Notes: generated by a model not told the origin, from the letters alone. 64,000 nucleotides of DNA from Spironucleus salmonicida (GCF_000497125.1 NC_090599.1:930001-994000), one strand, 5' to 3'; counted from the first letter of the stretch, positions 1-29,697 are shown. A program made the numbers and translations.

Positions 1-304
1 ACCGGTCGATCGAGTTGGCCGGGCAGACCTGACCGTTCGCGCACTGGCTCACGTAGGTCGAGCAGAAGTTGGGAAAGCAGTTCAGCTTGGTGTCATCTAG
101 CAAGTAGAAATCTAGGCATAATGTGCATTAATCGGGATTGGAGTTTTTGCAGTTTCGTACATTTCCATTTCTTGAAATTTTACAATAAAATCCTTCAGTA
201 ATTTGAGCACATGGTGTACAAGCCGCATGTGCTGTAGGAGATGTACATGAATAGTTAAAGCTGCAACCATTATTGGATAAATTTAAATCACAGCTTCCTG
301 ACAT
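1..304 (-). CDS. Cysteine-rich membrane protein (VSP/CRMP-like), 5' part, runs off window start; paralog of 57519-60788
   Basis: ATG at 304 after AAAA; MSGSCDLNLSNNGC... closely matches the start of the 57519 gene. Confidence 0.8.
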
Positions 305-1242
305 TTTTGAAATTAAAAAAATAAACTATGTATATATTACCTAAATTATCGAAACGTGTTAAATTTACTTATGGTTATATAAGTTGTTCAGTGCAGATTA
401 AATAAAATATTGATTTATTTTCAATAATTTATGTATTATTATTATTATTTTATTCATTTATTGTTATAGTAAAAACTAAATAAAACTAAGATAATTGAAA
501 TATATATATAAATATATGACTTATACTTCGGTTAAAAATTTCAATGACGATTATTATTCAATATTTTTCAATTTTGAAAATAAATATAACGGTTTACTTT
601 TGAGATACTACATATAATGGACACATTATTATTTAATTAACAAGAATATTAATATTTATTAGTTTAGAAAGAGTATAAAATAAATTGTATACTAAAACAG
701 AATCGTATAGATAAATGTTTATATATACTATTACAGCATAAATAGACCTGGACTAGATATGACAAATTTAGGCCAATCAATAAAGGTGGTTCTTAGGGTA
801 TAAAATGTTATAACCGTTAGTTATTTGTGCATAATTACTATATTCGTTATAAATTATTGATTCATAGCTGATCAGGATATCTGAATCAATAAGGACCTAT
901 CAAACGCGAAAATTTAGCTTAGTATAAATCTAGTTTTATTATTTTCGGTAATAATTCACTGTGAGAATTAAGTAAATTTATCCTTATTAATTAGCATGTA
1001 TAAAAGATCACAGTTCATGAAGCAATGTATCCCATTTTAAAATAGGTAGGCCTTGTTTTGTAAACCTAAATAGATATTACTCTCATAGTTTCTATTGGAT
1101 TGCTTAAAATCATAAAAGCAGCTAATAATGAGTATATGTTAAATTTTTATTTTTAAGAGTGTTAACCAGTCAAGTACTTACTTCTATTGGGAAATTTATA
1201 TTGTTGACATCTTTTTCGTATACTTTATTTAAATCCAAAAAT
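1..1242. repeat. Outer left arm of giant inverted duplication (partner 56582-57822)
   Basis: Reverse complement of e.g. 1141-1242 is found at 56582-56683; more substitutions than in the inner arms. Confidence 0.85.
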
Positions 1243-3396
1243 ACTTGTAAGGTTAAAATAAAACTTTTGTATTTTAAAAGTATATATATATATATTATAT
1301 GTTTTAGAGTGGCAATATTTTTATTATATTCTGGTATATAATATTATGTTTTTCCACTTTATTTTCTATTCCTTACTTAATATTATATAGTATATAATAA
1401 CTTTTAGCTTTTGAAAACTACGAAACTATATATCTCCCACTTCTGTTGTTGTATACTTAAATCTTTTTAAGTATTATATCCAATATATAGTATAATAAAA
1501 TTGTGTAAAGTAGAAGTTTCCTACGTATGGGTAATGGCAATTATAAATTTTTAACGATGCCTCTGGGCTTAAGTCCAGATAATGGCATAATAGCTTGGCC
1601 GAAAGTTTAAATGCCAAAAAAGTTAAATTGTGAGTGGAGGCTCAGTTTCATTTTTAGCAAGACAGAACTGTCTGTTACAATAAGAATGAAACAATGAAAA
1701 TTAATTTAACAAAAATAAAATAGAAAACGACCTTTTATCATCAGGTTGGCCAAAACTATTAACGATTAAAATTTTTGAGTAGGAATTTTAAAAAAGTGAT
1801 TTTTCAAACTTTCAGTAGGCGACTAGCAATTGAGGGTCCTTGTGTTAACACATTTTGGTGGTGCTAGATGACTTCTCTGGATGACCTTGTGCGAAACATG
1901 ATCTAGGTTTGTCAGAGGGATGAGAACCGACATAAATATTATATATTCTATATATCGACAATATATGCATAAATTAGTTTTTTCTACGTATACAATTCTG
2001 CAAAAACTGAAATGTTGATATTTGTTGAGGTTACTAGTTTTTTAGTTTCTGTATTGTGAAAACAATACAAAATTTAATATAATATAAAAAATATACAAAT
2101 ATTTTTGTATAATATAAAATTAAAATTTAGATTTATGTATTAGTATTATATATATTACGAATATTAACGTTTTTCAATTTACTGTATATGTTAGTTTCTG
2201 GCAGAGATAGAAAAGGAAAAAATATAGTATATATATAATAGATATATATATATTCTATATTGTATTTTAAAAGTACTTATTTTTCAAACGATTCGTCCAA
2301 AAAGGTCAAAAAATCATTATTTTGACACCTGTTGTGGAGTGGTACTTTTTGAAAAAAGGAGTTATGTAATTATTATATAGGATTATGTTAAACTTATTTT
2401 TTTCAAATTTTCACACACTTTGTTATGGTGTAGTATTATGCAATTTTTCTATTGTTTAAAGTGGTGAAAAAATAATATATATATATATATTATAGGTATA
2501 TTTTTTTGGTTTATAATATTGGAAAGATTTGTATTTTACATTAGTTTTGTACATAATTACATCAAAATTATACATACAAATTTACTATAAAATTCAGTTT
2601 CTACAGTTTCTATAGATTATTCAATATACAGACATATTATATTTACATATATATTAATAAATGTATTTTAAAGTACTCAAATTTATCAACCAAACCCATC
2701 AACACTATCACAAAACTCACTATAAAATTTTATCAAAATTTTTTAACCCTTGTTTGAAAGCTTATTATTAAAAATATCAAATAAAACTATTTTTAATATA
2801 TATTATTATATGTTTTTAAATAAAATATTTACAATTAATTATTCTAGTTTCTTCTATAACTTGTGTGGCAATAATATATATATCTAAAATATACAATTAC
2901 TTTCCTTTTTTTAAGAGAGTATAATTTATTGAATATTACTATTATATTTGTATATTATATTAGTTATTATAAGTTTTCCTTTTCTTTTTTACATTAATAT
3001 AATTATAATTATATAAAATTAATAATTTAAAAATGGGTAATGATAATAAAAATTAAAGTGATCAAAAAAATAAAAGAAATGGAAATTTAAATTATTATAT
3101 AATGAATATAATTTTATTAAAAAAATAATGATCTATTCAGAGTTGAACCCAGTATTAGTAAAATTAAAAAAATCGCTTATAACATCTAAACAAAAATTAT
3201 TATTTATAGATTTTTGGAGTGGAAATATTTTTAAGAATTTAAATAAATGGATATTATTATTATATATATTTAGATATACCATGGAAAGAAGAAATATTAC
3301 GTATAATAAACAATAATATTAACAAATCAATTTATCGTAAAAATGGATAATTAATAATTTCATATATATAAAATAGTACTAAAAATAGTCTCTAGA

Positions 3397-4659
3397 ATAT
3401 ATTATATACAAAAACTAATTTCGTAGAAAAAGAAGTAATATATATTTACAATATTAAATGATAGTTTCAATTCTTTTTTTAAAATCATAATAATAACTTT
3501 ATATATGAATAATATAGTGTTTGGTGATGCTAAAAAACTATTTAGAAATCTACAAAACCGATCTATTTTTAGAATCAACGTTTTAGAATAAGTGTATATG
3601 AATATATAATAATATGTAGTTTGCCCAGAAAAAACGCTTCATTTTTATGATTATAGATAATTTACTATTATAATAGGTTTGGTAACTTCCGGATTTTTAG
3701 CCAACTGTAGATGTATAGGTTTTTCCTTTCCTAAACATAACCTTTTGGTATTTTTTTTCTAATAGTGATTCTGCATTGAACGTGAAAAAATTTACATCCC
3801 ATAGGATATAATACACTATCGTATTTTTTTAAATACCATTAAATGTTGCAACCACTGCAGACTAGTTAATAGGATATACGATAACGTTATACAAAAGCTG
3901 CTGCAAAAGCTCTTGCAGAAGTCTATAATGCAGAAGCTACTGAAAAATACCACGCAAAACGTTGGGACCATATCGAATGCTTACGGTATGACGTGGACAG
4001 ATTCTAAAGGATGGTTGAGTCATTGACTAATTAATTAAAAAGAACTTAAATTGTTCTCAGAAGTGGTGACACGCTTAGAATCTTACACCATCAATATAGC
4101 TTATCATATCTTGACGGTTAAATTGAACAGGAAAAAAAGTCATTAGAGATAACTAAATACGAATTAGAGGTGGCAGTCCACTAACATAGATATATTTAGG
4201 CATAAATCCTGGCATTACCTGCAGACCCTGCAAACTATACTTATGTATAAGGATAAGGATTATCCGAAGAAGTTTGGGCCGAACTCCTTGCGATAAAAAC
4301 ATAATACACAGATCAAGAAATATTAGACAGATATCAAACTTCTGACACATCAGAATCTATGTGATATAATATTATATTATTTTTTTTTTCAATTTAATTA
4401 TTTTAAAAGTGATTAATCTATATTAATGATCTGAATAAATTAACCAATCTTAAAATGGTTAAAGGTTTAAAGTTTTAAATGAATTAATTATTTCTAAATA
4501 TAAATATAACTATAACTATAAATAAATAAATAATAATTCAGGAGATGTAAAGTTAATAATATTTATTTAATCTTATACTATATTTTTTTCGATTTTAATT
4601 TATATTTATATTTATTAATATTACGGATCTAATTTGATGAAGATGTTTTAATAAATATA
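3397..4659 (+). repeat. Left terminal inverted repeat
   Basis: Near-perfect reverse complement of 19840-21101 (one homopolymer indel noticed); mirrored ORF-track entries 4153-4350 / 20149-20346. Confidence 0.95.
3843..4364 (+). CDS. Hypothetical 173-aa helical/coiled-coil protein encoded within the left TIR
   Basis: TAAATG start, open to TGA with TAR=Gln: MLQPLQTSQQDIRQRYTKAAAKALAEVYNAE...SESM; followed by T10-CAA. Confidence 0.7.
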
Positions 4660-4772
4660 TTTGTTTGATGAATATATGAATAATTCTATTACTGATAAGT
4701 GTACGTGTATAAATATGAATATGTTTTAATAAATAAATTAAAATTGAAAAAAACAAAGATAATTCTTGTTGA

Positions 4773-5735
4773 TCACTATCTCATAATAATACTTTAATCT
4801 AATGGTAACTATATATTAATAAGATCATATTAATTAGAATAAATATCTATAAATCCGTTATCTGGTCTAATAATAATAGTACCACTCTTTGCAGATCCTT
4901 TTTAAATAGTAATTGGGAACTTTTTAGCACAGTCTTTTGGCATAAGAATTAATCCACCTTACTGAGCACACTCATCATTTATAATAATTTTATTATCTAC
5001 GCTACCAGATTCTTTGATGAGAATATTACCAGTACAATCTTTACCAATAAATATATTTTATGAATCTTATATTTATATATTTTTAGAATTACTATCAATA
5101 TACACTTTTGATGAATTATTTATTTTTACATTCTCACAATCTGATATGAATATATTGCTACCAACTACATCACAACCTGTTATTTACTTAGTACCTTCAA
5201 ATAAACATAAATTTTCTGCAACATATTTAACATTTTACATATTTGGTAAACTAACTTAAACATACTAAGCAGTATCATTTACGAACCTTTTAGGATAACC
5301 GATAACAGATTATACATTATTTGGTAATGCTTGATCAGTTACTTATACAAATTATAAATTTTAGAAATCGAAAGACATGTCAATCAATCCTGGTCTGATA
5401 CGTCTAACAATATTATAATGTTACATAGTCTTTGAACTTGGGTATTAAAATTTAAAATCACATATATCTGAATCAACTTTAGTACATATAATAATATCAT
5501 CAGTAAAGTTTACTGATTTCAATAGTTTAACAGTGTCACTTTCTTTATCATATTCAACTACATATAATCTTTCTAAACTACTATAATCTTAATTAATATA
5601 AACTTAATCTTAAATTTTACCGTGTGCTGATAGTTGTACAACATAAGGACCTTCTTGTCCTTCTTCGTAACCTTTTATATTATCAATTTGAATAGGTGTT
5701 TAACCACCTTACATAATATTAATGAACCTTTACAT
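4773..5735 (-). CDS. Beta-helix-like repeat protein, paralog B (320 aa)
   Basis: TAAATG start, MQRFINIMQGG...; Asn/Ile/Cys/Gly-rich repeats (NIFISDCENVKINNSSKVYIDSNSKNI); TGA stop. Confidence 0.7.
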
Positions 5736-5780
5736 TTATTCATATAAAAAATAAAGTCAATAAATATATAATCATAATAA

Positions 5781-6800
5781 TCATAATAATATTACATCTT
5801 ATGTAGATTATATGTTTAACAAATCATTGTCACTTGTTCTAACATCTATCATACCATTATTATTTTTGATTCTCACTACTCCATTATTTCCTGAATCAGA
5901 TCTGATTGTTATCGAATTTGTTTTTGCAGATCCTTACTCTATAAATAATATTCCATTATTAAAACAATTGGATTCTATATTTATTTAACTATTAATGTTT
6001 CCAGAGTTGTTACCTATAAATACTTAACCAGAATATTTATCAATATGTCCATCTAGCTTTATATTTTAACAACCTTGTTCTATAATTATATTTTAACAAT
6101 CATTATTTATTAGTATATTTTATCCATTAATTATTTAATTTTATTATTTACCTATAAATATTATGTTGTTACCTTTACATTATATATTTTACATGTTGGT
6201 ACCTAGAACAATATTGTTACCAGTAATTTAACAATTGCTAATATGTGTTATGTTAACTTCACATAATAAATATTTTGAATAGTAACATAATTAAACATCT
6301 TAAGGTAATCTTAATGGTTGATAACTTATGTTACATTAATTTTATTTTACTAATATAAATTCATCTGGTAAATTTGGAGTACTAGCAGGAATAGTTATTG
6401 GAATAAAACAATTAATAATATTACCTAAATAATTAAATTATTAACATACAGTATTCACAAAATCAAACTAACAATGTAACTATTGTCTAGATCTGTTACA
6501 AATCAAGTAAAATTTGTTTTAATATTTAAAAGAGTAACACTCGTTACATATCTTAACATAAATAACATCATTTGTAAACTTATCAGAAACTAATTATATT
6601 ATCTCATTATTTATATTATCAAATGATATTATTTTAAGTTTCTCATTTTATAATTATATTGGATAGTCATCTACTTTATTCACAGATTATTATTCATTCT
6701 TTTTTTCAATTCTTATTTCTTAATAGAATCATTGATTATTTCCTAGTCTATATCTATAAATATTTATAACTATTTTGTAGTTACTACAATTCTACCATTA
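5781..6800 (-). CDS. Beta-helix-like repeat protein, paralog A; 5' end disrupted, start uncertain
   Basis: Open frame ~6700 to TGA at 5781 (GNNIVLGTNMQNIQCKGNNIIFIG...); C-terminus resembles paralog B; frame change near the T7 run at ~6700-6706. Confidence 0.6.
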
Positions 6801-6868
6801 TATGTTAAAGTTGGATATGATCATATTAGTTGTGCATTTAATTTAGCGAAAAATTTTCTAATAAACAT

Positions 6869-8056
6869 ATGCCACAGCAGTAAATGTTCATAAACATCTA
6901 GTCAACCAATGATATTAAAAGATTGAATATAACTTAATCAGATAAGATAATTTATCCAGAACAATTAAACGTATTAGAATTAACAAACATTAGTGTATAA
7001 ACTAATTAAAAATGTAACGACTTAGTATTAAAAGGAAGTAATGATGATATTATAATAGCTAGATTAGTTGATACTGAACTGTGTTCGTTTTTGTATAGAC
7101 ATGACAAATATTCTATAATTAAAAGATACAATGATAATATAAGTCCAAATTTTGATTTTAAAAATACAATTAAACACTAAGATCGTAGTGGATTAATATA
7201 ATATAAATAAGTAACTTAAAATTAATATAATTTAGATGGAATTGTTAGTATTAAAGATAGCATAGATCTATCAACATATTTATAAAATATAAATTTGTAA
7301 CTAAACTTGTTATAATCTTATTCTGATATCACCAAATTATAAGATATAACTGTTATTAACTCTTCTGATATTGTGTTAGGAAACTAGAGTTAAGGAATTA
7401 GTATACATGATAGTACAAATATTAGAGTAGATGATAATTGTTGTAGCGAGTCTGGAAATATAATTATTAATTCTTCTAATGATATTCACATAGGAAACAA
7501 TTGTGCAAACTATGGATTAATTTATATAAAAGATAATTGTTAAAATATTTATATTTAAGAATAGTGTAGTAATTCGGGTTAAATAATAATAAACAGTAAT
7601 TGTGGATCACTTGGTGGTTAAATTATTATACAAGATCAGTGTGCTAATTAAGGTTAAATATTGATAGGGAACTCTTGTGCAACTAATGGAGGTAAAATAT
7701 TGATAGGTAAACAACTATAATTAGTAAAAATATAAAATGGGACGACAACTAATCCAAATTCTATATTAAACATATGTTACGATTAATATAATTTTGACCA
7801 ACAAATAATATTATAGAAATCTTAGTAAAATCTTTAAATTATAAATGATCTACAAATATAGAGATACAAATTCCTATATTTAATAAACACTAAAGATTAT
7901 TATAATCATATCAAGAAGATACACTAAAATAATATTATAAATTTATAATAAGTATAGAATTATATAGCACCAGTAATAGATCTACAAAATCCAGACTAAA
8001 TACCAAATATGTTCGACACTGATTAATATGAGAATGTAAAAATTTTATTAAACTGA
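6869..8056 (+). CDS. Beta-helix-like repeat protein, paralog C (395 aa)
   Basis: MPQQQMFINI...DDIIIARLVDTELCSF...FDFKN, then repeats such as NSSNDIHIGNNCANYGLIYIKDNCQNIYIQEQCSNSGQIII; TGA at 8054-8056. Confidence 0.72.
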
Positions 8057-8061
8057 GTATA

Positions 8062-11000
8062 ATGAACGCTTCTATAAATGATTGTTTCAAAGCATGCATT
8101 GGTTCTTAATATATCTTCTGGATTTATGATAAAAGGCTATAAAGTTAGTACGCAACACACTATTTACCTACCTAATCTGACAATGATGCATTTTGGTAAG
8201 AGTATATAGAGAAGTTCATATCTTCACCAAATAACACTAATGTACAATACAAAAACAAAGCTATTGATCCTAAATATAATTCTGGGATACCATTTGACTC
8301 TGATATATACATAAATATAGATGAAAAGGAATATTTAGTCAGCTATTATTAAATCTTATTGTAAGGTAGATAAAAGTAGCTAGCTCAACAAAAATTAGAT
8401 AATATATAAAATATGAATGAAAATGATATTATGTAAACGTTTAAATAATTAGTAAGTGCTCACAAATTTATACCGAAATAAGATATTATGTAACTAATTT
8501 AATAAGCAACAGTAGAGTTCCTATCTTTCCTAAACAGTAGATTCGAAAAGTCTACTATAGGTGGTAATCCATAAGGTAATCCTTTAGGTATATAACCTAT
8601 AATTATGTTACGAGACAAATTAGACTTATCAAAATCTAAAAGTGATGAACATGTTTACAGATACGGTTTCCATATATATTATTTTGGTGTCAAGTTTACC
8701 TTTTAATGGAAATATTTTATAAAAGAGTACTTCACTTTCTCACCACAACTAATTTAAAATCTATAAATGTTGTTACCACACACTACTCTAGATTAATTCT
8801 TAGATACTTAACCTTTGGTAGGAGCAATTTCTCTTCCTTTATCTAATAGTAAAGCTAAATCTTATTCTAGATTTTATAATAGTGATAACAATAAATATGT
8901 AGATGTTACTACTGATATCTTATTATTATTAGCATTAAATCCTTTCTAAGGATAACCTGCTAAGATATAGTAACAGTACTCATATTTAATATTAGATGAA
9001 TTTTAATCTTTTGTAGAATATTTGTAGATTAACCAAACCCAAAGTTACGAACATGCAATAACTGTAGCTATTAATTTTATAATGTAACATTCAAAAGCTG
9101 ATCCATCTTTACTAGAATTATATAAATAGTATGGACATCCATCTTACCAACAAAGAATACAAATTATATAATATTTAATAAATATATATAGCGGTAAACA
9201 TAGATTTATGTTACTATAGTGTGCTTACTATTTAATAATGTGTGGTAACGATTAAACTACTTAACTAAAATATAATTCTGTACAACAAATACTTGATACT
9301 TATGTACCTTCTATTGATACTCCATAAGGTAATCCATAAGGTACTCCATAAGGTAATCCTATTATTGATAACAACGTTGATGATGAATATGTTGATGAAT
9401 CTGTTGATGATAGTACTACATAAGGTAATCCATTAGGTACTCCATAAGGTACTTCGTTAGATGGTGAAGTATCTCAAGTATCTTATTTATTAAATTCTGA
9501 TACACTTGTTAATACGTCATCAGAAGATACTGTTTGGTTAGAAAGTAAGAGAAATAGATTTCAAAAAAAATATCTATTATAGTATAGCAATAATTTTAGT
9601 ACGTTCATAAAAATAACCAATCAGTAGAGCAATCAATATTATTATTGTTCAAATTATATAATTCTATAAATAATACTAACTTATAATATAATTAATAATT
9701 AATATATTTATAAAATTTTGAAAGTTTTCTTGCTAAGTATCATTATGGAATATTTCTTCAAACTTATTATTCACAGTTGAGATCATCTACTTTAGATGTA
9801 TCAGTTTAAGAAACTTACACAGATTATATTGTAACATAATTATAAAACAAAGTAATAAGAAGATGTGATGGATTATTAGTATTTTAAGAATCTGCTATAA
9901 ATTATTCTGATTATAATAAATATCACTTTGATACTGGTGCTATACAAGTTCCGGATATTACAAACAAAATTATGGTTAATTTAAAAAATAATATATGTTA
10001 AAAGGTAGCTTAATATAAATTAAATTCTTATATAATATTTCTTGAAGCTTCTAGTAACTTTTCTAATAAACGGTGGCTTGCTAAATAAGAAGATTCTCCG
10101 AATATTGTTCAATACCGAGAAATTTCATAGTTATATTGTTAGATACGTTCCATAGATATGTATTAAACTAAATTCAGAACTACTGGTAAAGCTACAACAG
10201 ATAAATTGTAACCAAACTTATAGTTAAATCAATTAGATATAGATTAAGATGATAATATAATAGGAGTATTTAATGGTATAATATAATATGATAATAATAT
10301 TAATAACTTTTAATTACTAAATGCTGATCAATGTAGAACTAAACTAGTTACAAAATCTAATCTGTTTGAAATATAGTAATAGTTTATAGATAAGAATTAA
10401 TTCTTGATAACTCCAGAATAATTATCAAAAGATATTATAGAAGGATATGATGATAACTAGAGTTATTATTAAATTTATAAAGAAGTAGAATCAATTTACT
10501 CAGATATATTTAATGATGGAGACGACATCGAAGTATTTGAATTTATTATATTATAAGGTTTTACAAGAATGATTCATAAGACTATATCAAACTCTCACGT
10601 ATTGTTTTAATATGGTACTGGTTCAGATGGTAAAACATTCTCAACTTAAAACATAATGACAGGATTAGGTTCTGATGCAACATCTATACAAAAACGAAAG
10701 ATTTCAGCGTAAGGTTATTCATCTAAAGTTAAATCATCAGTATTACAAACTTCGAACACTTGTGCTAGTAGTCATGACAGTGGGGGTTATCCAGAATTAA
10801 TTGGTAAATATATTGCAGTAGTATCTGAATTAAATATTAATGTTGACCTAAGTGTAGATGTAATCAAATCATTATGTTGTGACACTTAAGTTAGTTGTAG
10901 AAAAGCAAATGCTTCTGATGTTGTTAGTTTTACAAATAAAGCTCTTATTATTATATAATCAAATTCTTATCCTAGATTTAATTAATAAATAGATGATGGT

Positions 11001-11673
11001 CTAGCAAGAAGATTCTTATTTTATAGCCATAAAGTTAAATTTATAAGTGAGTAATCTTATAATGACAAAACCGAATCAGAAAGAAGACAAAACAAAATAG
11101 CTAGTGTAGATATACGTACAAAAATGTCATCAGATCTTAGATATATAGATGTGTTTGGGTTTTATATGTTATAAACTTATATGAAGTGTATAAGAAGAAG
11201 AGATGATTATACTAAAGTTACCCCAATGTTATAATATGAAACTAAACAATTTTAAGATAATATTTAAAAATATATCACAGAGTGTTCTAATTTATTAGAA
11301 TTTAAACACATAAACTTCATCTACTTTAAATAATATATAAAGAATGTTTAAAATATAATAAAATCTTAAGAAGAATAGAAGAACCTTAATTAATAATAAG
11401 TTGTAATCATATTTATTAATTAAAAGTAATCTTTAGTATATATATATATGTTATTTTGACTTAACTAAGAAGATCTTGTGTAGGTTAACTGAGAATGACT
11501 TCTAAGCTAAAATGAACAACACAAATTTTATAGTAATAATTATAGACCACGTTTATGTAAGTTAAAACTTACAACAGATCAATGATGTGTTCTACACTTC
11601 GTTATCTACTAAGAACATAGACGTACATACGACAATATTGAAAACTATATAAAGCTTTGAAAATAACATCTGA
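8062..11673 (+). CDS. AEP primase - superfamily 3 helicase fusion (poxvirus D5 / ASFV C962R-like), frameshifted
   Basis: AEP-like motifs SGIPFDSD and YRYGFHIYY; Walker A YGTGSDGKT at ~10611-10637; IAVVSE, IIIQSN, DDGLARRF..HKVKF. Frame change at A8 (9563-9570); second frame stops at 11459, probable further shift in (TA)n ~11437-11449 extends to TGA 11673. Confidence 0.88.
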
Positions 11674-11747
11674 TAATTATATTCTTATAATTTTTTTCAA
11701 GAATTTTATCAAAAAAAATATTATATAAATAAATATTAGTGATCATC

Positions 11748-12728
11748 TCACACTAATAAAGTGTCCCAGTTCTTGTATAGATTACTAACAGGTTATTAAA
11801 CAATTAATAAGAAGTTATAATTTGACAACTGTTGATTAATCTAAATAGGTTAAGGTAAGTTCGTCACTCTATTTAATTGCTTATATTGTTCTATAAATTA
11901 AGGTACCTAAAAAGTATCTGTCTACAACTTTGGTAAACTATAATACAAATCTTATATCTCTTCAAAGTCTACTCCTTAAAATAAGAATATCATATTCATG
12001 TGCTATTTAAATAGTTTAGTTGCTCGGTTGATACTATGTAAAGATATACCTATAAACCATAATCCTAAATGTCTCTTTGTTGTTAATAGTTTTGCAAAGA
12101 GTTCGTGAGTTAAATTAGTTAACTCTGTCTTTTAATAATAATCAAATCTTAAAACTATCTTCTACCTTCTGATCCAATATCCATCAAAGTGTTGTCCAAC
12201 TGATTTATATAATTGACTAACCTGTATATGTTTCTAGTTATCATATTCAGCGAATAACAATTCTGGATACTTAGTCTTTACTGTTTAAATTTAATTTATA
12301 CATTATATGATTTTATCTTAGTCCTATATTTAACCATTTCTTAATGTAGATTGTTTAGTTAAGACTTTACTAACATCGTCACTCATATTTTAAAAGAATT
12401 TAAATAATTATTATAATTTGTTATCATCTGGTTAAATCTTAGTCTTCTTATCTTTAGTTTGTTTTAAAGTATCGTCGCTCTGTACTGAAGGGGATATAAA
12501 GATATTATGAGTAACTTTTTCATTATTTAATTAAGGATTATTTAAATCATATTTAGTAAGAGTAGCGTAATCTATATATTGTTGAGCAACCGTATTCATT
12601 TAGTATGATTTACCTGAACCTGGAGATCCCCAGAACCCATAGAATCCATAAGATATTAATTTAATATTATTGTTTTAACTAGAATCTATAATAAATTAAC
12701 ATTCGTCTGATTACACATTATATGCCAT
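11748..12728 (-). CDS. A32/FtsK-HerA-type genome packaging ATPase (326 aa)
   Basis: TAAATG start; Walker A GFWGSPGSGKS (~12607-12639), NIFISPS, Walker-B-like IVLRFDY, arginine-finger region LLTTKRHLGLWFIGISLH; intact frame to TGA. Confidence 0.82.
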
Positions 12729-12755
12729 TTATTAATTAGAAAAATATAATTTTGA

Positions 12756-15236
12756 TCATTTTATTATGTCTGGTCCTAAACATGTACCCGTTTATAATGC
12801 GTAATGTTATATATAACGACATCTATTAATTAAAGATAATTTATCATATACTTCTTATTTGTAGAATTAATTTTCAGAAAATAATTTATTGTAACTTGGT
12901 TAGAAAGTTGCACACACTTTAATTTAATCAGATATTATAATTTTATATTATGGTAACTCATCAGTAACTTAAAATATAATAAGGTTGTTGTTAGTATACA
13001 ATCTAGTTTGTACTACACATTTTATTTCTATCCTGGTATAATAATAGTATTAGCTTAATAATAACCTATAATGTTAAATTACTTTATTAGTTTGTTTATA
13101 CTATTCTTAACATATATTAAAGGTTTGTCATATATTGCAGCAAACAATTGTTTATGATTTTCAATAAATTAAGTATCATCATCTTTCATATATACATAAT
13201 TATCCCAAACTAAGTAAGATGTTAATGTATCATTGTTTAAGAATTCTTTTTCTAGTGATGCTTATTATTATATTAATTAACATATTTGCACTCTTAACTA
13301 ATTAGTAATTACTAATTAATTTATTTGTGTGAATACGTTAGCCATAGTATTGTTAGTATTCTTTTATACAATAATAATTGGAGTTAATTACTTTTACATA
13401 TTTGCTAATTATGTTTCTGAGGATTATTGTTTGGTAAGACAATCTTTTCTATATAAATATTCTTCATTAATATTTGATTAAATATATAATTATTTAATAA
13501 TATTTAGTAATTCTTCGTCACTAAAATATGATAAAGAGAAATTAAAGGTTACAAATTAATCCGTTCTAAGTATCTATAATAATTATTACTTAGGTATTGT
13601 TTTTATTTATAATTCAAATAAGAATTTGTAAATTTGGCTAAACATTTCTAATTTAAATCTGTCATACAGCTTTTTGGATTAATATTTAATTTGTTTTGTA
13701 TCTTCTAACAAGTTTGCATTATAACATTGTTTTCTTATTTTAAATAATAGTTATTATATATTTTAATCATCGTTATATATTTAAATCCATTTCTACTCAT
13801 GTTAAGTAATTTTTGAGAAGTTTGGAGCAGATGGTACGAATATATACGTTTTAACATATCTTTACTATTCTGGTAAATCTTAATGTGATTTAAATCTAAT
13901 AGATCTAGCAACAATTTATTTAAACATAGACATGTCTACTATATTATCAGTTATCATAAAATGGTTTACACATCTAAGACTTAACCCTGTCTGACCTATA
14001 GATGATAATATTAATAATTATATTTTGTATCCGTATTTATTTTCATAACTATTAAATATTTATTAAACTTTAGATAACTATATTCCAGATAACTCAGCCG
14101 TATATTTTAAATAAGTTGCTTGCTAATAATGCCTCTTATCTTCTTTGTTAGTATGTTATTATAACTGTTATCCACAAATCGAACATAACGTAGTCTGAGT
14201 AGGTCTTTCATTAAATAAAATGTAACCATTATGTAATAATATTTGTTCATATTGATATAACCCGAAATGAGTTTTAGTGTGATCAAAATATACTACTATT
14301 TTTTTTTTGATCTTTCTATTTTAATATATATTATAATTATTTTATGAAATTATAACTAATAGGTGAACACTTCTTAAGATTTTAAATAGATACTTTATCA
14401 CCTACCAAAATATGATTAGATAATATCTCAGTTCCATCATAATAATATTTAGGTAACAACAATTTAGCTCTATCCAATCCATCAGAGTTAGATGTTACTT
14501 ATAAATATTTATTATATTATTATTACCCGAGTTAACATCTAAACAAATTAAACTATTTTATTAAATTAGGTCCATTTTCTATTTATATGTTATTAGGAAT
14601 ATAGCTAGAATTAAGCTTAGTCCAACTTATAACATGTTCAGCTAATTTTTATATGTTTTAAGTATCATCACCTATACTCTAATTAAATATAGATAATATA
14701 GAATTAATTTCATCTACGTTAGAATTAATTAATGTACCAATAAGACATATAACTCTACAACTATTTAGATGTATTTTAAAGAAATCTCTAAACAGTTTAC
14801 CATAAGTGTTTAACTCTTTTTAATTATATAAATGTTAAAATTCATCTATGATTATATAACTACCTACGAATTAATCTTACAATTCTTAATAAGTATATCT
14901 CAACAGTCCTTATAAAGTAACGAATGTAATTTATAAAGTAGATTAACATTTATGTAAATCATTTTTGAATGCTTATACTGTAGTCTCATTTCCAATTACG
15001 ATTGCTCTATTAGTTATTTATTATATCATAGATATGGCAGTAGTAGTTATACCAGTTCCCATTACGAAGTCTAATATATACCATTTTAATTATTAATTAG
15101 CTAACATAAATATTCTTTAAGCATATAATTAATATTTCTTATATTAGAACTACGTACCAGTATTTTATATATTTAGTTTATCAACGTTAGTGTGCAAAGA
15201 TTAAAATCATAAATCATTTTTATCAATTTAAGTCAT
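12756..15236 (-). CDS. D6/D11-type SF2 helicase (VETF small subunit / ASFV D1133L-like), disrupted
   Basis: LDFVMGTGITTTA, YIIIDEFQHLYNQKELNTYG, CLIGT, Zn-like insert TTLCSICG..H, QIVARSIRFKSHQDLPEQQRYV. In-frame TGA at 15207-15209, frameshift at T10 (14299-14308), probable shift near 13030; 3' end tentative. Confidence 0.85.
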
Positions 15237-15294
15237 TATGTTAATCAATACAAAAAACACAACAATAGAAGATTATCTTTTTTTTCAAATATAA

Positions 15295-16113
15295 ATGTCT
15301 TCTTTTGGTATAGATCAGTACAATGCGTATGCTGGAAGTTTAGGAGAGTCTAGTGTACAATATTATAAAATCAAAAACATATTATTTAATTCAGCTTTCT
15401 ATTTAGGACCTGGACAATCTATTCCTAATTAAACATTCGATGACGATCATTACTTTACTAATATTTAAATTAATAGTATATATTTCTTAGGGAATTATTT
15501 TGATAAAGATAACATAAATGGGTTAAGCTTATACCATGCAGCATATTATTTCTCACCTACTGACAAATTCAACATGTACTTATTCTACGGAGATTTGTAG
15601 TTTACTAGGATGTTCATTCTTGGACATCTATTATAAGATGCTACTGCATAATTGAGTAGTTAAATCATGTTTACTTTCCATTTAATTAAACGAAACTGTA
15701 TATATGTATCTAAAGATATATATTAAATAACAATTGATAAATAAACATACCATGGTCAAATGAATGTTATGTGTTAAAGACTTTACCAGACCTAAGTTAT
15801 TATTGATAAATATAAATTATTTATAGAATTAGTATTAAAATTAAATGAAGAAACCAACAACAAACTAAAAGATTATAAAATATAAGCTAATGAATATTAA
15901 TAATATACTAAGCCAATTAAGTTATCATTATTATAAGATTATTATTAAACTATTAACCGATCGATATAATTATAAACTAATATGAATAAATTTAATACTT
16001 AAAATGTAAATGTTATATCATGTGTAAATATAGTAGATGTGTAGTTAGATAATTCAGTAGTTAACAACATGGATATAAAACAAAGTTGTAACATTAGTCA
16101 AGAACAATAATGA
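15295..16113 (+). CDS. Hypothetical 272-aa protein; C-terminal C-x-N-I...N..I.Q.C pattern reminiscent of NCLDV virion membrane/entry proteins
   Basis: TAAATG start, open with TAR=Gln; ends NVISCVNIVDVQLDNSVVNNMDIKQSCNISQEQQ. Confidence 0.65.
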
Positions 16114-16291
16114 ATTTGAAAAAGATAATTCAAAAAAAATCATATAAACTGATCATAAATTAAATTTATTTAATTACATACGTTCATTTAAATTTATTTA
16201 AGTTTATTTAAGTTAATCAGTTTAATAAAAACATATGTTTTATATATTATATTAATTTACGTATTATTAATTTGATGAATACTATAAAAGT

Positions 16292-16906
16292 TCATTTAGA
16301 AAAACATTACATACATGATTTAGAAATTTCAAATATGTCATTAAATATGCTTAGAAGCTTTTTTTTGTTTTTCTCGAATATAAAGGTTATATATTATTTT
16401 AATAAAATATAAAAATCATCATTAACTTCAATGCGTTTAGACGTATCATCACTAGATAAATATTATATTATACTATTTAATACTACTTATTGTCTATACT
16501 ATCCTAACTTTTTACCTTTAAAACATGACTCAGCTGTTGCCATTAATCCAACAATAACTTAATAAGCTGACTCAACAATGTTCTAATTAACGTAAGCTAC
16601 TTTAACATTTTGCATTATTTATAATGAATATTTTTAATATTTCTTGTTTTGGTTTTATGTTATTATTGATTATTTTAAATTATCTTTACTTATATTATTT
16701 AACAACAGGTCTGTTCTCTACACTAACGTTTCTTAACTGTTTACAGAACTTCCTAAATTATTTACTACAGTGTTCACTATATTACTTTCTATTTTTTCGT
16801 CTATATGTTCATTTTACAGTTTGTAAACTTCTTTTGAAAAATCTTATGAAAAGTCTTCAGACTCTTCTATTATATCTTTAAGAGTTTGGTTAATATCAGG
16901 TGGCAT
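16292..16906 (-). CDS. Hypothetical 204-aa protein, acidic N-terminus, C-terminal CxxC
   Basis: MPPDINQTLKDIIEESEDF...IVGLMATAESCFKGKKLGQ...SKSCMQCFSK-TGA; intact frame. Confidence 0.65.
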
Positions 16907-16946
16907 TTGTTACTGTGAAAAATATTTTTTTATTGGCAGACATCAA

Positions 16947-18080
16947 ATGGGTATTAATGGATTACTGAACTATCTTTAAAGAACAAATAACATATAATAC
17001 GAATAATTTAATTAGTTAGTATTCGTAAAACACAATATAGTAGATTTTAATAACCTTTTATACAAATAATAAAACAATACTTAACGAGAATTTAAACCAA
17101 TAAATAGAATATAAAATGTACTAAACTGTTGTAAATAATTTGCTAATAATCCTGATAAATAATTCTACATAGTGTTAGACCCAATTGGAAAAACTAGAAA
17201 ATAACCTATCATAGATTTTAAATAATATTAAGATATTATAACAACTTATAGCGATCGTAAATGTGAACTAATGTTTAATAATAGCGATATATGTGCTAAA
17301 TATAATAACGGATATGTTGATAGTTACTACCCTTTTAAATATAAGAAAGCAGATTTTAATCATTGGTAGACTGCTAAATTTCCTATATATAATGATATAA
17401 TATGTATGTAATATTTTAAAGATCTACCTAACGTTGAAGTAATATATGCTCCAGTAGAAGCAGATATAACGATAGGCTAATTAGTTTAACGACTATAAAC
17501 TGAAGCTGAAGTAACAAACAATGATATAAATATATTTTCATATGATTCTGATATGTTAATTTATTCTAATGGGGTTAATATGTAAACTAAATAATATATT
17601 ATTAACATGGACACTATTAATAAACAATTACATTTTAAATATATTTATATAATTAAATATATTTCTATAACATATGCAGATTATTTTAATTTAGAAGAAT
17701 AACATTTGTAAACATTATTTGATAAAGTATATCGTTAAAACATACAACAAGTTAATCTTAAGTTTATGTTAGACAACATAAAATATTCTAAATATGATTA
17801 AATAGATCAAATCTAATTATAACTATCTTAATTTAATATTAATACACTAGGTTGTGCTATTATTTTTAATTTATTATTTCTACAACCTGTTTATGATTAG
17901 CATTTGACAACAAGTTAATTGATAGAATAATATTATAATATTAATTATTAATATAAATTAAAACTTGATAGTAACATATTTTAAAATATAACATTTTTAA
18001 TGAACAACTTAGAAATAATTTAGAACCTATCTCCTACAGAATTATAGACTATACGTAATAACAAGATAACAGTTATATGA
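16947..18080 (+). CDS. FEN1/XPG-family PIN-domain 5' nuclease (377 aa; poxvirus G5-like role possible)
   Basis: MGINGLLNYL, IVDFNNLLY, YIVLD, APVEAD, FSYDSDMLIY, ADY motifs in canonical order; intact frame. Confidence 0.85.
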
Positions 18081-18209
18081 TATTTTAATTTATATTTAGT
18101 GTTACTCTCTATTCTTTTTTTCAATTTTAATTTATTTGTATATTTATATTTATTATTTATTAAACTTTAAACTTACAACTATACATGTACCTTTATCAGT
18201 AATAGAATT

Positions 18210-18596
18210 ATTTATATATTTATATATTTATATATTTATATATTTATATATTTATATATTTATATATTTATATATTTATATATTTATATATTTATATATT
18301 TATATATTTATATATTTATATATTTATATATTTATATATTTATATATTTATATATTTATATATTTATATATTTATATATTTATATATTTATATATTTATA
18401 TATTTATATATTTATATATTTATATATTTATATATTTATATATTTATATATTTATATATTTATATATTTATATATTTATATATTTATATATTTATATATT
18501 TATATATTTATATATTTATATATTTATATATTTATATATTTATATATTTATATATTTATATATTTATATATTTATATATTTATATATTTATATTTA
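18210..18596. repeat. 8-bp tandem repeat (TATTTATA)n
   Basis: Direct reading; gives the spurious IYLYIYIF ORF. Confidence 0.95.
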
Positions 18597-18749
18597 TTTA
18601 TTAAATTAACTTCATAAACTCAAACTTACACACATATTTATATTTATTAAACAAACCTCTTAAACAACTTTATGGATAACTTCATGGATAACATCATGTA
18701 TCAGAATTGGAACTTCAACTTAAACTTAGATAACTTACAAATATTATTT

Positions 18750-18919
18750 ATTATTTATATTTATATTTATATTTATATTTATATTTATATTTATATTTAT
18801 ATTTATATTTATATTTATATTTATATTTATATTTATATTTATTTTTTTTTATTTATATTTATATTTATATTTATATTTATATTTATATTTATATTTATAT
18901 TTATATTTATATTTATATT

Positions 18920-18966
<47 letters not shown>

Positions 18967-19849
18967 TTATATTTATATTTATATTTATATTTATATTTAT
19001 ATTTATATTTATATTTATATTTATATTTATATTTATATTTATATTTATATTTATATTTATATTTATATTTATATTTATATTTATATTTATATTTATATTT
19101 ATATTTATATTTATATTTATATTTATATTTATATTTATATTTTATATTTATATTTATATTTATATTTATATTTATATTTATATTTATATTTATATTTATA
19201 TTTATATTTATATTTATATTTATATTTATATTTATATTTATATTTATATTTATATTTATATTTATATTTATATTTATATTTATATTTATATTTATATTTA
19301 TATTTATATTTATATTTATATTTTATATTTATATTTATATTTATATTTATATTTATATTTATATTTATATTTATATTTATATTTATATTTATATTTATAT
19401 TTATATTTATATTTATATTTATATTTATATTTATATTTATATTTATATTTATATTTATATTTATATTTATATTTATATTTATATTTATATTTATATTTAT
19501 ATTTATATTTATATTTATATTTATATTTATATTTATATTTATATTTATATTTATATTTATATTTATATTTATATTTATATTTATATTTATATTTATATTT
19601 ATATTTATATTTATATTTATATTTATATTTATATTTATATTTATATTTATATTTATATTTATATTTATATTTATATTTATATTTATATTTATATTTATAT
19701 TTATATTTATATTTATATTTATATTTATATTTATATTTATATTTATATTTATATTTATATTTATATTTATATTTATATTTATATTTATATTTATATTTAT
19801 ATTTATATTTATATTTATATTTATATTTATATTTATATTTATATTTATT
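18750..19849. repeat. 6-bp tandem repeat (ATATTT)n with a ~43-nt poly-T at 18922-18964
   Basis: Direct reading. Confidence 0.95.
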
Positions 19850-21101
19850 AAAACATCTTCATCAAATTAGATCCGTAATATTAATAAATATAAATATAAA
19901 TTAAAATCGAAAAAAATATAGTATAAGATTAAATAAATATTATTAACTTTACATCTCCTGAATTATTATTTATTTATTTATAGTTATAGTTATATTTATA
20001 TTTAGAAATAATTAATTCATTTAAAACTTTAAACCTTTAACCATTTTAAGATTGGTTAATTTATTCAGATCATTAATATAGATTAATCACTTTTAAAATA
20101 ATTAAATTGAAAAAAAAAATAATATAATATTATATCACATAGATTCTGATGTGTCAGAAGTTTGATATCTGTCTAATATTTCTTGATCTGTGTATTATGT
20201 TTTTATCGCAAGGAGTTCGGCCCAAACTTCTTCGGATAATCCTTATCCTTATACATAAGTATAGTTTGCAGGGTCTGCAGGTAATGCCAGGATTTATGCC
20301 TAAATATATCTATGTTAGTGGACTGCCACCTCTAATTCGTATTTAGTTATCTCTAATGACTTTTTTTCCTGTTCAATTTAACCGTCAAGATATGATAAGC
20401 TATATTGATGGTGTAAGATTCTAAGCGTGTCACCACTTCTGAGAACAATTTAAGTTCTTTTTAATTAATTAGTCAATGACTCAACCATCCTTTAGAATCT
20501 GTCCACGTCATACCGTAAGCATTCGATATGGTCCCAACGTTTTGCGTGGTATTTTTCAGTAGCTTCTGCATTATAGACTTCTGCAAGAGCTTTTGCAGCA
20601 GCTTTTGTATAACGTTATCGTATATCCTATTAACTAGTCTGCAGTGGTTGCAACATTTAATGGTATTTAAAAAAATACGATAGTGTATTATATCCTATGG
20701 GATGTAAATTTTTTCACGTTCAATGCAGAATCACTATTAGAAAAAAATACCAAAAGGTTATGTTTAGGAAAGGAAAAACCTATACATCTACAGTTGGCTA
20801 AAAATCCGGAAGTTACCAAACCTATTATAATAGTAAATTATCTATAATCATAAAAATGAAGCGTTTTTTCTGGGCAAACTACATATTATTATATATTCAT
20901 ATACACTTATTCTAAAACGTTGATTCTAAAAATAGATCGGTTTTGTAGATTTCTAAATAGTTTTTTAGCATCACCAAACACTATATTATTCATATATAAA
21001 GTTATTATTATGATTTTAAAAAAAGAATTGAAACTATCATTTAATATTGTAAATATATATTACTTCTTTTTCTACGAAATTAGTTTTTGTATATAATATA
21101 T
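19840..21101 (-). repeat. Right terminal inverted repeat
   Basis: Reverse complement of 3397-4659. Confidence 0.95.
20135..20656 (-). CDS. Second copy of the TIR-encoded 173-aa protein
   Basis: Mirror of 3843-4364. Confidence 0.7.
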
Positions 21102-29609: not shown

Positions 29610-29697
29610 ATTATGGAGCGTAGGGTGTAGACCCGGCGGCGGGCTAGAGCGGAGCGCTGGATGGTTGCCATGCAAACCAGGCAGACCCCTCATTCAT

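What the first reader, a model, noticed from the sequence alone, without database searches (positions are those of the whole stretch)
3397..21101. No PolB, integrase, capsid or RNA polymerase recognised: possible segment of a multipartite virus or helper-dependent element
Seen: both ends are present and the interior is almost fully accounted for by ORFs, yet I find a packaging ATPase without a recognisable capsid and an early-transcription-factor-type helicase without RNA polymerase. Inference: it could be one segment of a segmented NCLDV-like genome sharing common TIRs, a defective/satellite genome, or an internally deleted copy.
Basis: inference. Interest (0 to 1): 0.78.

Follow-up and report, generated by a model that had tools for sequence, protein, structure and literature searches.

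The report
Giant-virus-like gene cassette in a diplomonad-type genome
A single-copy block of giant-virus-type genes, written in the host's own unusual genetic code and framed by near-identical inverted repeats, sits in a protist chromosome; it lacks the genes needed to copy or package itself, so it is most likely a defective remnant and a rare host-linked trace of such viruses.

Summary
The inverted repeats are real: 3397-4659 and 19840-21101, 1263 nt, one indel. The "ORF-filled interior" exists only if TAA/TAG are read as Gln. Under tables 11 and 4 there is no ORF over 85 aa between 5259 and 16624. Under table 6, 3787 ORF codons hold 318 in-frame TAA/TAG, and TGA only as last codon. The host reads them the same way (Adaptin_N).

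Gene content:
- a poxvirus D6/D11-type helicase
- a D5-type SF3 helicase
- a weak FEN1/XPG-like nuclease
- a small P-loop ATPase, with packaging identity unproven
- three beta-helix paralogues
- orphans

No PolB, capsid, RNA polymerase, capping enzyme or integrase family was found in the 11 element ORFs and 8 flank ORFs scanned.

The core lies on one short-read contig of even depth. Against a paralogous empty site the insertion is 20,324 bp (1243-21566), larger than the repeat-bounded unit and edged by deep host repeats. Both large genes carry a homopolymer frameshift.

Best reading (0.55): a non-autonomous endogenous remnant of a Nucleocytoviricota-like virus of a code-6, diplomonad-type host. 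The multipartite idea is not supported; helper dependence stays open.

The parts
1243..21566 (.). DNA present here but absent from the paralogous copy in the other arm of the large palindrome (empty site at 56581|56582)
   Evidence: 1-1242 = rc 57822-56582 (91.6%) and 21567-23500 = rc 56581-54648 (98.9%); the two are contiguous in the right-hand copy; exact junctions, no target duplication.
1243..2231 (.). Very deep (multi-copy) host repeat that starts exactly at the left end of the insertion
   Evidence: X1 contigs over 1349-1622 and 1626-2231 have depth 11030 and 8803, against 148 for the core. The X4 contig begins to fit at 1241. No Pfam family in its ORFs.
3397..4659 (+). Left inverted repeat (1263 nt)
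   Evidence: 99.92% identical to the right arm, one indel.
3499..3778 (.). Sub-segment of the repeat that belongs to a deep repeat family; its left limit lies somewhere between 3460 and 3499
   Evidence: a 3930-bp X1 contig, depth 3110 (X4: 155), fits only 3499-3778 and then continues into sequence unlike the stretch laid.
3843..4364 (+). Repeat-borne ORF, 173 aa, orphan, coiled-coil-like; second copy at 20135-20656(-)
   Evidence: only itself among 91 candidates (annotated as a 173-aa protein in the host record); best feature score 0.76, below the tool's 0.9 lead bar; codon use like the core; contigs of two runs guessed to be RNA cover 3858-4354 at depth 1390-1530.
4773..5735 (-). Beta-helix paralogue A (320 aa)
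   Evidence: 32% identical to paralogue C. TGA only at the end.
5781..6683 (-). Beta-helix paralogue B (300 aa, GTG start)
6869..8056 (+). Beta-helix paralogue C (395 aa)
   Evidence: AF2 with 3 sequences, mean pLDDT 46, residues 160-290 at 55-82; parallel beta-helix chains, Z 8-12 over model residues ~140-317. The N-terminal 160 aa are unresolved.
8062..9570 (+). N-terminal part of the primase-helicase gene. A primase identity rests only on my reading of motifs ('DIYINID' at residue 81, 'GFHIYY' at 202)
   Evidence: No Pfam, PHROG or PDB match.
9534..11459 (+). D5-type SF3 helicase part, in another frame; the frame change is at or near A8 9563-9570
   Evidence: frames. DUF5906 at E 0.0014-0.0022, below cut-off; phrog_1156 'DNA primase' 6.6e-10; nearest clusters D5_N + DUF5906, score 0.97.
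11748..12728 (-). P-loop ATPase, 326 aa (Walker A GSPGSGKS at residue 34); packaging function unproven
12596..15107 (-). D6/D11-type (NPH-I / VETF-s-like) SF2 helicase, about 825 aa, split by one frameshift at T10 14299-14308
15295..16113 (+). Orphan ORF, 272 aa
   Evidence: no family; pLDDT 29.
16292..16906 (-). Orphan ORF, 204 aa
   Evidence: nothing above cut-offs.
16947..18080 (+). FEN1/XPG-like nuclease candidate, 377 aa
   Evidence: XPG_I E 0.089 (weak); motifs MGINGLL at residue 1, APVEAD at 168, SYDSDML at 198; the match to the family is my reading.
18223..19848 (.). (TATATT) microsatellite of about 270 units, with a T51 run, between the core and the right repeat
   Evidence: GC 2-7%.
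19840..21101 (-). Right inverted repeat (1262 nt)

Best explanation
This is a chromosomally integrated, apparently single-copy remnant of a Nucleocytoviricota-like DNA virus, or of a small element derived from one. Its genes are written in the host's variant code: TAA/TAG = Gln, TGA the only stop.

The ~15-kb core carries:
- a primase-like N-terminal part joined to a D5-type SF3 helicase
- a FEN1/XPG-like nuclease candidate
- a poxvirus D6/D11-type transcription helicase
- a small P-loop ATPase
- three diverged beta-helix paralogues (spike or adhesin-like)
- two orphans

A further orphan gene sits in each 1.26-kb inverted repeat. No DNA polymerase, capsid protein, RNA polymerase, capping enzyme or integrase was found. 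The cassette therefore cannot copy, transcribe outside the nucleus, package or insert itself.

Shown: the code, the repeats, the helicase family, the insertion relative to an empty paralogous site, and the frameshifts.

Inferred: that it descends from a larger virus genome by loss or deletion; that it entered by illegitimate or repeat-mediated recombination rather than by an integrase; and that it is now decaying.
For: Code:
- In-frame TGA occurs 0 times internally, against 187 in the two other frames, over 3787 codons.
- At the 37 helicase columns encoded by TAA/TAG, homologues carry Q at 7.5% against a 2.9% background, and mostly polar residues.
- The host's Adaptin_N match grows from profile 97-239 (E 3e-13) to 3-239 (E 1.7e-31) when the in-frame stop is read through.

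Foreign origin: core GC3 is 0.17, and 342 of 430 Gln codons are TAA/TAG. The two host genes have GC3 0.70 and 4 of 30.

Lineage:
- helC has 1476 hits at E<=1e-3.
- The A2 profile matches vaccinia NPH-I at 3e-35 and VETF-s at 5e-26.
- An independent 29-sequence profile covers both frames (E 1.7e-69 and 2.4e-27).
- One homologue lies next to a capping enzyme and Rpb1.
- The D5-type helicase is supported.

Not autonomous: no polymerase, capsid, RNA polymerase or integrase family.

Integrated and single: the window's contig is 1.70 Mb. One 14,488-bp short-read contig covers 3752-18118 with 0 differences. The X1/X4 depth ratio of the core (15-23) is like that of host pieces (12-35).

Entry without an integrase: the insertion is 20,324 bp, has no target duplication, and its left end coincides with the start of a deep host repeat.

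Decay: one homopolymer frameshift in each of the two largest genes.
Against: - Every other ORF is intact, with ATG starts and TGA ends, and the three paralogues are all open. This fits a recent or still-used element as well as a decaying one.
- The two repeat arms differ by one indel in 1263 nt. That is what replicating linear virus genomes show, but it also fits recent duplication or gene conversion.
- The frameshifts could be homopolymer errors. The agreeing short-read contig may come from the sample used to build or polish the assembly.
- Capsid absence rests on Pfam and two poor models (pLDDT 29 and 46). Metamonad capsid genes are known to escape such searches (PMC10120064, passages).
- The ATPase could not be classified.
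- No listed contig bridges host and element. Integration rests on the assembly itself.
Confidence: 0.55

Rival explanations
1. It is a complete, helper-dependent linear element: a satellite or transpoviron-like passenger, or one genome segment, of an undiscovered giant virus of diplomonad-type hosts, caught here as an integrated copy. It would use its own primase-helicase and nuclease, and rely on the helper for polymerase, transcription and particles.
For: - Near-identical 1.26-kb repeats, each carrying a gene.
- ORFs intact apart from the two homopolymer sites.
- A giant-virus-type transcription helicase without an RNA polymerase.
- A ~300-nt piece of the repeat is shared with a deep family whose contig continues differently.
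- Helicase fragments 41-53% identical exist in other public data.
Against: - The core and inner repeat lie on one contig of even depth, with no paralogues of the D5-type helicase or repeat ORF.
- The inserted DNA extends beyond the repeats on both sides.
- Another contig elsewhere carries the same flank-to-repeat junction: 2718-3413, then 3489 onward. So 3397 may not be an element end.
- No helper genes lie in the window.
- There are two frameshifts.
Confidence: 0.2
2. The inverted repeats are not viral ends at all. They are a local inverted duplication made by the host region, which forms palindromes readily, around a captured fragment of viral DNA.
For: - The same window holds a palindrome with ~14-kb arms at 99% identity.
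- The repeat contains a piece of a deep host repeat family, and its outer edge lies inside a unit found elsewhere.
- A 1.6-kb microsatellite sits at the inner edge of the right arm only.
- A degenerate inner inverted repeat (4668-4711 / 18180-18223, 89%) lies next to it.
Against: - The repeat ORF has core-like codon use (GC3 0.29; 13 of 19 Gln codons are TAA/TAG) and no host paralogue.
- Giant-virus genomes commonly end in gene-bearing inverted repeats (recalled, not tested here).
Confidence: 0.15
3. It is a Maverick/Polinton-type or Polinton-like-virus integrant that has lost its polymerase, integrase and capsid genes.
For: - Its size (17.7 kb), long inverted repeats, and a D5-type helicase plus a small ATPase are common in Polinton-like viruses (PMC4642659 and PMC5499653, abstracts and listings only).
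- Metamonad integrants using TAA/TAG = Gln are known in Streblomastix (PMC10120064, passages).
Against: - No rve, PolB, protease or capsid family was found.
- No target duplication.
- To my recollection (not tested here), D6/D11-type helicases belong to giant viruses and cytoplasmic linear plasmids, not to Polintons.
Confidence: 0.06
4. It is an assembly artefact: a free episome or contaminant joined to the chromosome through shared repeats.
For: The element touches host sequence only through repeats, and no listed short-read contig bridges the junctions.
Against: - It uses the same rare genetic code as the host.
- Four DNA runs of the organism hold 93-100% of its sampled words.
- Its depth ratio between runs is like that of host pieces.
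- The junctions against the empty site are exact.
Confidence: 0.04

Closest known systems
Endogenous Nucleocytoviricota elements (GEVEs and smaller fragments) in protist genomes
   Same: Giant-virus core-type genes (D6/D11-type helicase, D5-type helicase, FEN1-like candidate) integrated in a eukaryotic chromosome and compositionally distinct from neighbouring host genes. PMC13524828 (passages read) reports such elements in algae, fungi and Trichomonas.
   Different: - Only ~15 kb of genes.
- No capsid, PolB, VLTF3 or RNA polymerase found.
- Framed by near-identical 1.26-kb inverted repeats.
- Written in code 6.
- The host is of diplomonad type, a group not named in the passages I read.
Code-6 Imitervirales metagenome genome (family IM_12) in PMC13524828
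   Same: Giant-virus-type genes that read properly only with TAA/TAG = Gln. The paper says no giant virus is known to infect a code-6 host directly (passages read).
   Different: That one is a free metagenomic genome without a host. This one is a small, incomplete cassette inside a code-6 host chromosome. Kinship between the two was not tested.
Maverick/Polinton-type integrants of Streblomastix strix (PMC10120064)
   Same: A viral integrant in a metamonad that shares the host's TAA/TAG = Gln code (passages read).
   Different: Those were found by their major capsid protein. Here no capsid, integrase or PolB was found, and the helicase is of giant-virus type.
Transpovirons and cytoplasmic linear 'killer' plasmids (pGKL type)
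   Same: Works like: AT-rich linear DNA with inverted terminal repeats, few genes, and dependence on another replicon's or virus's machinery. pGKL2 carries a D6/D11-like helicase (recalled). Transpovirons appear in PMC3671162 (listing and abstract only).
   Different: Transpovirons are about 7 kb, and pGKL plasmids encode their own PolB and RNA polymerase (recalled). This element is integrated, and no helper is known.
Mriyaviruses (35-45 kb relatives of giant viruses)
   Same: Small genomes with giant-virus-type genes (PMC11253617, abstract; 10.64898/2026.06.19.733378, passages).
   Different: They are defined by giant-virus-like capsid protein, A32 ATPase and VLTF2/3. None of these was demonstrated here.
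Tlr1 elements of Tetrahymena
   Same: A code-6 host, AT-rich DNA, long inverted repeats, virus-like genes.
   Different: Tlr1 carries an SF1 helicase fused to an inactivated polymerase, and belongs with Polinton-like viruses (PMC5499653, abstract only). No such gene is present here.

Membership tests
Poxvirus/giant-virus D6/D11-type (NPH-I, VETF-s) SF2 helicase | Full-length sequence similarity to NPH-I/VETF-s well above that to cellular SNF2 helicases | tested here: met
   the family profile matches 6rfl_Y at 3.1e-35 and 7amv_W at 5.1e-26, and CHD1L at 3.8e-4; a profile built without the window's sequence fits both frames, HMM positions 16-908 of 979.
Poxvirus/giant-virus D6/D11-type (NPH-I, VETF-s) SF2 helicase | Genomic company of viral transcription genes | tested here: not met
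   No RNA polymerase or capping enzyme in the element, although homologue P0012 has both beside it.
D5-type primase-helicase | SF3 helicase core with a D5_N-type region | tested here: met
   phrog_1156 at 6.6e-10. Atlas D5_N + DUF5906 clusters, score 0.97. Pfam DUF5906 only 0.0014, below cut-off.
D5-type primase-helicase | N-terminal archaeo-eukaryotic primase domain | tested here: inconclusive
   No family or PDB match for 8062-9562. Only motifs read by eye.
A32-type (FtsK/HerA) packaging ATPase | Match to the family profile or fold | tested here: inconclusive
   Pfam at E<=0.01 gives only RNA_helicase, 0.0052. PDB sequences gave nothing. No fold was made.
FEN1/XPG nuclease | XPG_N and XPG_I domains | tested here: inconclusive
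   XPG_I at E 0.089, below cut-off. Motifs at residues 1, 168 and 198.
Nucleocytoviricota genome (autonomous) | Double jelly-roll major capsid protein | tested here: inconclusive
   No capsid family. The models are too poor to judge. The matches cover only the beta-helix.
Nucleocytoviricota genome (autonomous) | PolB, RNA polymerase subunits, VLTF3, capping enzyme | tested here: not met
   None found in the 11 element ORFs. The full six-frame scan failed for size.
Maverick/Polinton | Protein-primed PolB and rve integrase | tested here: not met
   none found.
Maverick/Polinton | Target-site duplication flanking the inverted repeats | tested here: not met
   flanks are ...tctaga | ... | attttg...; one search shows the same for the outer junctions.
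Segment of a multipartite genome with common ends | The same terminal repeats on other molecules or loci with different cargo | tested here: inconclusive
   Only ~3499-3778 is deep and continues differently, while the inner repeat is not deeper than the core. No genome is held for a full search.
Transpoviron-like or satellite episome | A free linear form and dependence on a giant virus | not testable with these tools
   Only contigs could be laid, and no helper is known.

The most novel reading that the evidence does not exclude
The cassette is the integrated form of a new kind of helper-dependent linear element, transpoviron- or satellite-like, belonging to an undiscovered giant virus that infects Hexamitinae-type diplomonads and shares their TAA/TAG = Gln code. 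It brings its own primase-helicase, flap nuclease, D6/D11-type helicase and three beta-helix spike proteins. It expresses a repeat-borne gene while integrated, and it shares a short terminal module with about twenty other loci of the genome.
Probability: 0.17. Interest if true: 0.85.

Novelty: new variant of a known kind. Interest (0 to 1): 0.62.

Why it matters
A recent catalogue (PMC13524828, passages read) states three things. All giant-virus isolates come from standard-code hosts. One metagenomic giant-virus genome reads properly only in code 6. No giant virus is known to infect a code-6 host directly.

Here, giant-virus-type genes in code 6 lie inside the chromosome of a code-6 host. That gives a physical virus-host link, and it points to DNA viruses of diplomonad-type protists. 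I found no report of such viruses:
- no diplomonad paper among the 10 and 15 listed.
- 3 papers hold both terms; the 2 listed were seen by title and abstract start only.
- 11 papers hold both terms; passages of one were read.

These searches are not exhaustive, and supplements were closed.

The locus also gives named queries for finding the full virus: the helicase and its 41-53% identical fragments. It is a test case for how such DNA enters a genome without an integrase.

Tried and rejected
- RIP-type mutation of a fungal transposon (my first idea). Rejected: TpA/ApT is about 1.0 and (CpA+TpG)/(ApC+GpT) is 0.8-1.1; TGG, TGT and CAT are kept; ATG starts and TGA ends are clean.
- Table 4 (TGA = Trp): no ORFs.
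- tRNA and Rfam scans: none found.
- Whole genome and earlier notes: none held.
- Relatives in IMG/VR: 6 scans, each with pattern hits but 0 confirmed.
- Word-based protein search: D5-type helicase, only itself of 3630 candidates. helC, one hit at E 5e-3 of 3120. Repeat ORF, only itself of 91.
- PDB sequence searches: nothing for the ATPase, the D5 part and the N-terminal part. Only chance-level Atg8 rows (E 0.03) for the nuclease.
- AF2 of 15295-16113: pLDDT 29, so no fold search was made.
- BFVD search with the beta-helix model: 0 matches at E<=0.001.
- Names for 10 helicase hits: none carried a name.
- Mimivirus-type early motif AAAATTGA (recalled): 10 matches against 5.2 expected; 3 of 100 shuffles reach 10; within the element it occurs only at 4740 and 18121, downstream of genes.
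- Low-stringency self-BLAST of the flanks: only AT-rich noise.
- Pfam scan of 146 six-frame pieces: failed for size and was dropped.
- No RNA holder is listed for the core. In the two runs guessed to be RNA, most of the core had little or no cover.
- The ATPase was not examined by the Atlas, fold prediction or the full HMMER search, so its class stays open.

Full report
WHAT THE WINDOW IS. Bases 1-23000 are about 22% G+C. The rest is about 63% G+C with AT-rich islands. The GC-rich part encodes eukaryotic proteins: Adaptin_N, a sulfatase, and cysteine-rich CXXC proteins with a C-terminal membrane helix. It also contains a palindrome with ~14-kb arms, 21567-35978 and 42171-56581, at 99% identity.

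The host reads TAA/TAG as sense. Translated through the in-frame stop at 37814-37816, the Adaptin_N match becomes one stretch over profile 3-239 (E 1.7e-31, 110 bits). Under the standard code it covers only 97-239. This code, together with arrays of GC-rich cysteine-rich membrane protein genes, is what is described for Hexamitinae diplomonads (PMC11787283 section 3 and passages; PMC9509377 passages). I did not test the host's position by phylogeny, and I name no species.

THE OBSERVATION. The inverted repeat is real and far beyond chance: 3397-4659 against 21101-19840, 99.92% over 1263 nt, with one 1-nt indel near 3757.

The "interior accounted for by ORFs" holds only under table 6. Under table 11, none of the 18 ORFs >=60 aa in 1-24000 lies between 5259 and 16624. 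Table 4 does no better.

My first idea was RIP-type decay of a fungal transposon. It failed on dinucleotide indices.

In ten ORFs (3787 codons) there are 263 TAA and 55 TAG in frame. TGA occurs ten times, always as the last codon, against 187 TGA in the two other frames. Where the helicase uses TAA/TAG, its homologues have Q at 7.5% (background 2.9%) and otherwise polar residues (37 columns).

Codon use is unlike the two host genes in the window. Core GC3 is 0.17, with 342 of 430 Gln codons TAA/TAG. The host genes have GC3 0.70 and 4 of 30.

GENES.

Helicase, 12596-15107(-). The full HMMER search of the C-terminal 559 aa found 1476 proteins at E<=1e-3, 112 at <=1e-10 and 0 at <=1e-30.
- The best long hits (~950-1100 aa, 25-31% identity) align over query residues 3-390.
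- An alignment of the query with 29 of them (A2), searched as a profile against PDB sequences, matches vaccinia NPH-I (6rfl_Y, 3.1e-35) and VETF-s (7amv_W, 5.1e-26). The best cellular remodeller is at 3.8e-4.
- A profile of the 29 without the window's sequence fits 12599-14899(-) at HMM 439-908 (E 1.7e-69) and 14286-15206(-) at HMM 16-445 (E 2.4e-27). So this is one full-length gene split by a single frameshift at the T10 run 14299-14308.
- One homologue (P0012) lies on a 35.9-kb metagenome contig beside a three-domain capping enzyme and RNA polymerase Rpb1.

D5-type helicase, 9534-11459(+).
- phrog_1156 "DNA primase" at 6.6e-10.
- Atlas neighbours D5_N + DUF5906 at score 0.97.
- Pfam DUF5906 at 0.0014, below its cut-off.

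It continues an upstream ORF (8062-9570) in another frame, with the switch at or near A8 9563-9570. That upstream part has no match anywhere. Calling it a primase rests on two motifs read by eye.

Nuclease candidate, 16947-18080(+). Only XPG_I at E 0.089, plus three motifs typical of the family by my reading.

ATPase, 11748-12728(-). Walker A at residue 34. The only Pfam match is RNA_helicase, 0.0052, and PDB gave nothing. Its packaging role is not shown, and it could not be examined further.

Beta-helix paralogues, 4773-5735(-), 5781-6683(-), 6869-8056(+). They are 32% identical to one another. A three-sequence AF2 model has mean pLDDT 46, with residues 160-290 at 55-82. Those residues fit parallel beta-helix chains (tailspikes, polysaccharide lyases, adhesins) at Z 8-12, rmsd about 3 A, 140-160 aligned. 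The tool warns that Z under about 8-13 can be generic for repeats. The N-terminal 160 aa are unresolved, and BFVD gave nothing at E<=0.001.

Orphans. 15295-16113 and 16292-16906 have no family.

Repeat ORF, 3843-4364. A 173-aa orphan annotated in the host record (Atlas best score 0.76).

No PolB, capsid, RNA polymerase, capping enzyme, integrase or recombinase family was seen in 11 element ORFs and 8 flank ORFs. A scan of all six frames failed for size.

HOW IT SITS IN THE GENOME. The right arm of the large palindrome is an empty site. Its reverse complement matches 1-1242 (91.6%) and 21567-23500 (98.9%), and the two matches are contiguous. The left arm therefore carries 20,324 extra bases, 1243-21566, with exact junctions and no duplication. 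The repeat-bounded unit 3397-21101 lies inside this, also without a duplication.

Four runs of one organism were laid on 1150-18150 (contigs only, so depths are one figure per contig and are not copy numbers). They showed:
- A 14,488-bp contig covers 3752-18118 with no difference, at depth 148 (X1). The X4 pieces are at 6.5-9.6.
- Contigs over 1349-2231 are at depth 8800-11000 (X1) and 317-345 (X4). The family begins to fit at 1241, which is the insertion's left end.
- A 3930-bp contig at depth 3110 (X1; 155 in X4) fits only 3499-3778 and then leaves.
- A contig at depth 338 carries 2718-3413 joined to 3489 onward. So the flank-to-repeat junction exists elsewhere in a variant form.
- A loose end at 1242 reproduces the empty-site sequence.
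- Contigs of 419 and 438 bp, from two runs guessed to be RNA, cover 3858-4354 (the repeat ORF) at depth 1390-1530.

From this I conclude three things. The core and inner repeat are not multi-copy. Only short pieces at and outside the outer repeat are shared with other loci. And the outer end of the repeat may not be a true element end. The D5-type helicase and the repeat ORF have no paralogue in a database that holds this genome's own proteins.

INTERPRETATION. The gene set combines giant-virus core-type functions in the host's rare code. That implies a long association of the donor virus lineage with code-6 hosts, as argued for Streblomastix integrants (PMC10120064, passages).

The set lacks everything needed for autonomous replication, cytoplasmic transcription, particle formation and integration. 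Two genes are frameshifted, although this may be assembly error: the agreeing short-read contig may not be independent.

I therefore favour a defective endogenous remnant that entered by illegitimate or repeat-mediated recombination (0.55). The rivals are:
- an integrated copy of a complete helper-dependent element or segment (0.20)
- a viral fragment whose "terminal" repeats were made by the palindrome-prone host region (0.15)
- a degenerate Polinton-type element (0.06)
- a misjoin (0.04)

The laid contigs speak against it for the full repeat. They leave a ~300-nt shared module unexplained.

NOVELTY. PMC13524828 (passages read) states that all giant-virus isolates come from standard-code hosts, and that only one metagenomic genome prefers code 6, without a host. 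My searches turned up no report of giant-virus-type DNA in diplomonads. They are not exhaustive, and most listed papers were seen only as titles and abstract starts. Supplements, where genome-by-genome lists of integrants would be, were closed.

The kind (endogenous giant-virus-derived DNA) is known. The code, the host group and the small repeat-framed, capsid-less format make this a new variant. Helicase fragments 41-53% identical in other public data sets (P0003, P0004, P0071, P0083, P0100) show that closer relatives exist and are the way to the intact virus.

Noticed in passing
window 21567-35978 and 42171-56581: Large palindrome with ~14.4-kb arms in pieces at 99% identity, carrying GC-rich cysteine-rich membrane-protein genes. 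The 6.2-kb spacer holds an adaptin gene. Further copies of arm pieces lie at 61476-64000.
   Followed up: partly
window 1-1242 vs 56582-57822, and 21567-23500 vs 54648-56581: Identity between the two palindrome arms drops from 98.9% to 91.6% exactly across the insertion point. This would be expected if the heterology stops arm-to-arm gene conversion.
   Followed up: no
window 37814-37816 and 36391-36393: In-frame TAA/TAG inside host genes (adaptin; a cysteine-rich membrane protein). The Adaptin_N match runs straight through the first.
   Followed up: yes
window 3843-4364 (= 20135-20656): An orphan 173-aa ORF in each inverted repeat. Contigs of 419 and 438 bp from two runs guessed to be RNA cover it almost end to end at depth 1390-1530. 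It has no homologue.
   Followed up: partly
window 18223-19848: A (TATATT) array of about 270 units with an internal T51 run, G+C 2-7%, on one side only of the core.
   Followed up: no
window 4668-4770 and 18090-18223: A degenerate second inverted repeat just inside the near-perfect one (89% over 44 nt). It includes TTTTTTTCAATTTTAATTTATTT after the last gene on each side.
   Followed up: no
window 1243-2231: A non-coding AT-rich repeat whose short-read contigs are 60-75 times deeper than the core in X1 (30-40 times in X4). It begins exactly at the insertion's left end.
   Followed up: partly
L001 10001-22901: A metagenome contig (40% G+C, standard code) with a D6/D11-type helicase, a three-domain capping enzyme and RNA polymerase Rpb1 in a row. 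This is a giant-virus-type transcription block.
   Followed up: partly
upstream of 6869, 8062, 16947/16906, 3843: A G(T/C)GAAAAAT(A)TTT-like word lies 15-60 nt upstream of several element genes. Its enrichment was not tested.
   Followed up: no
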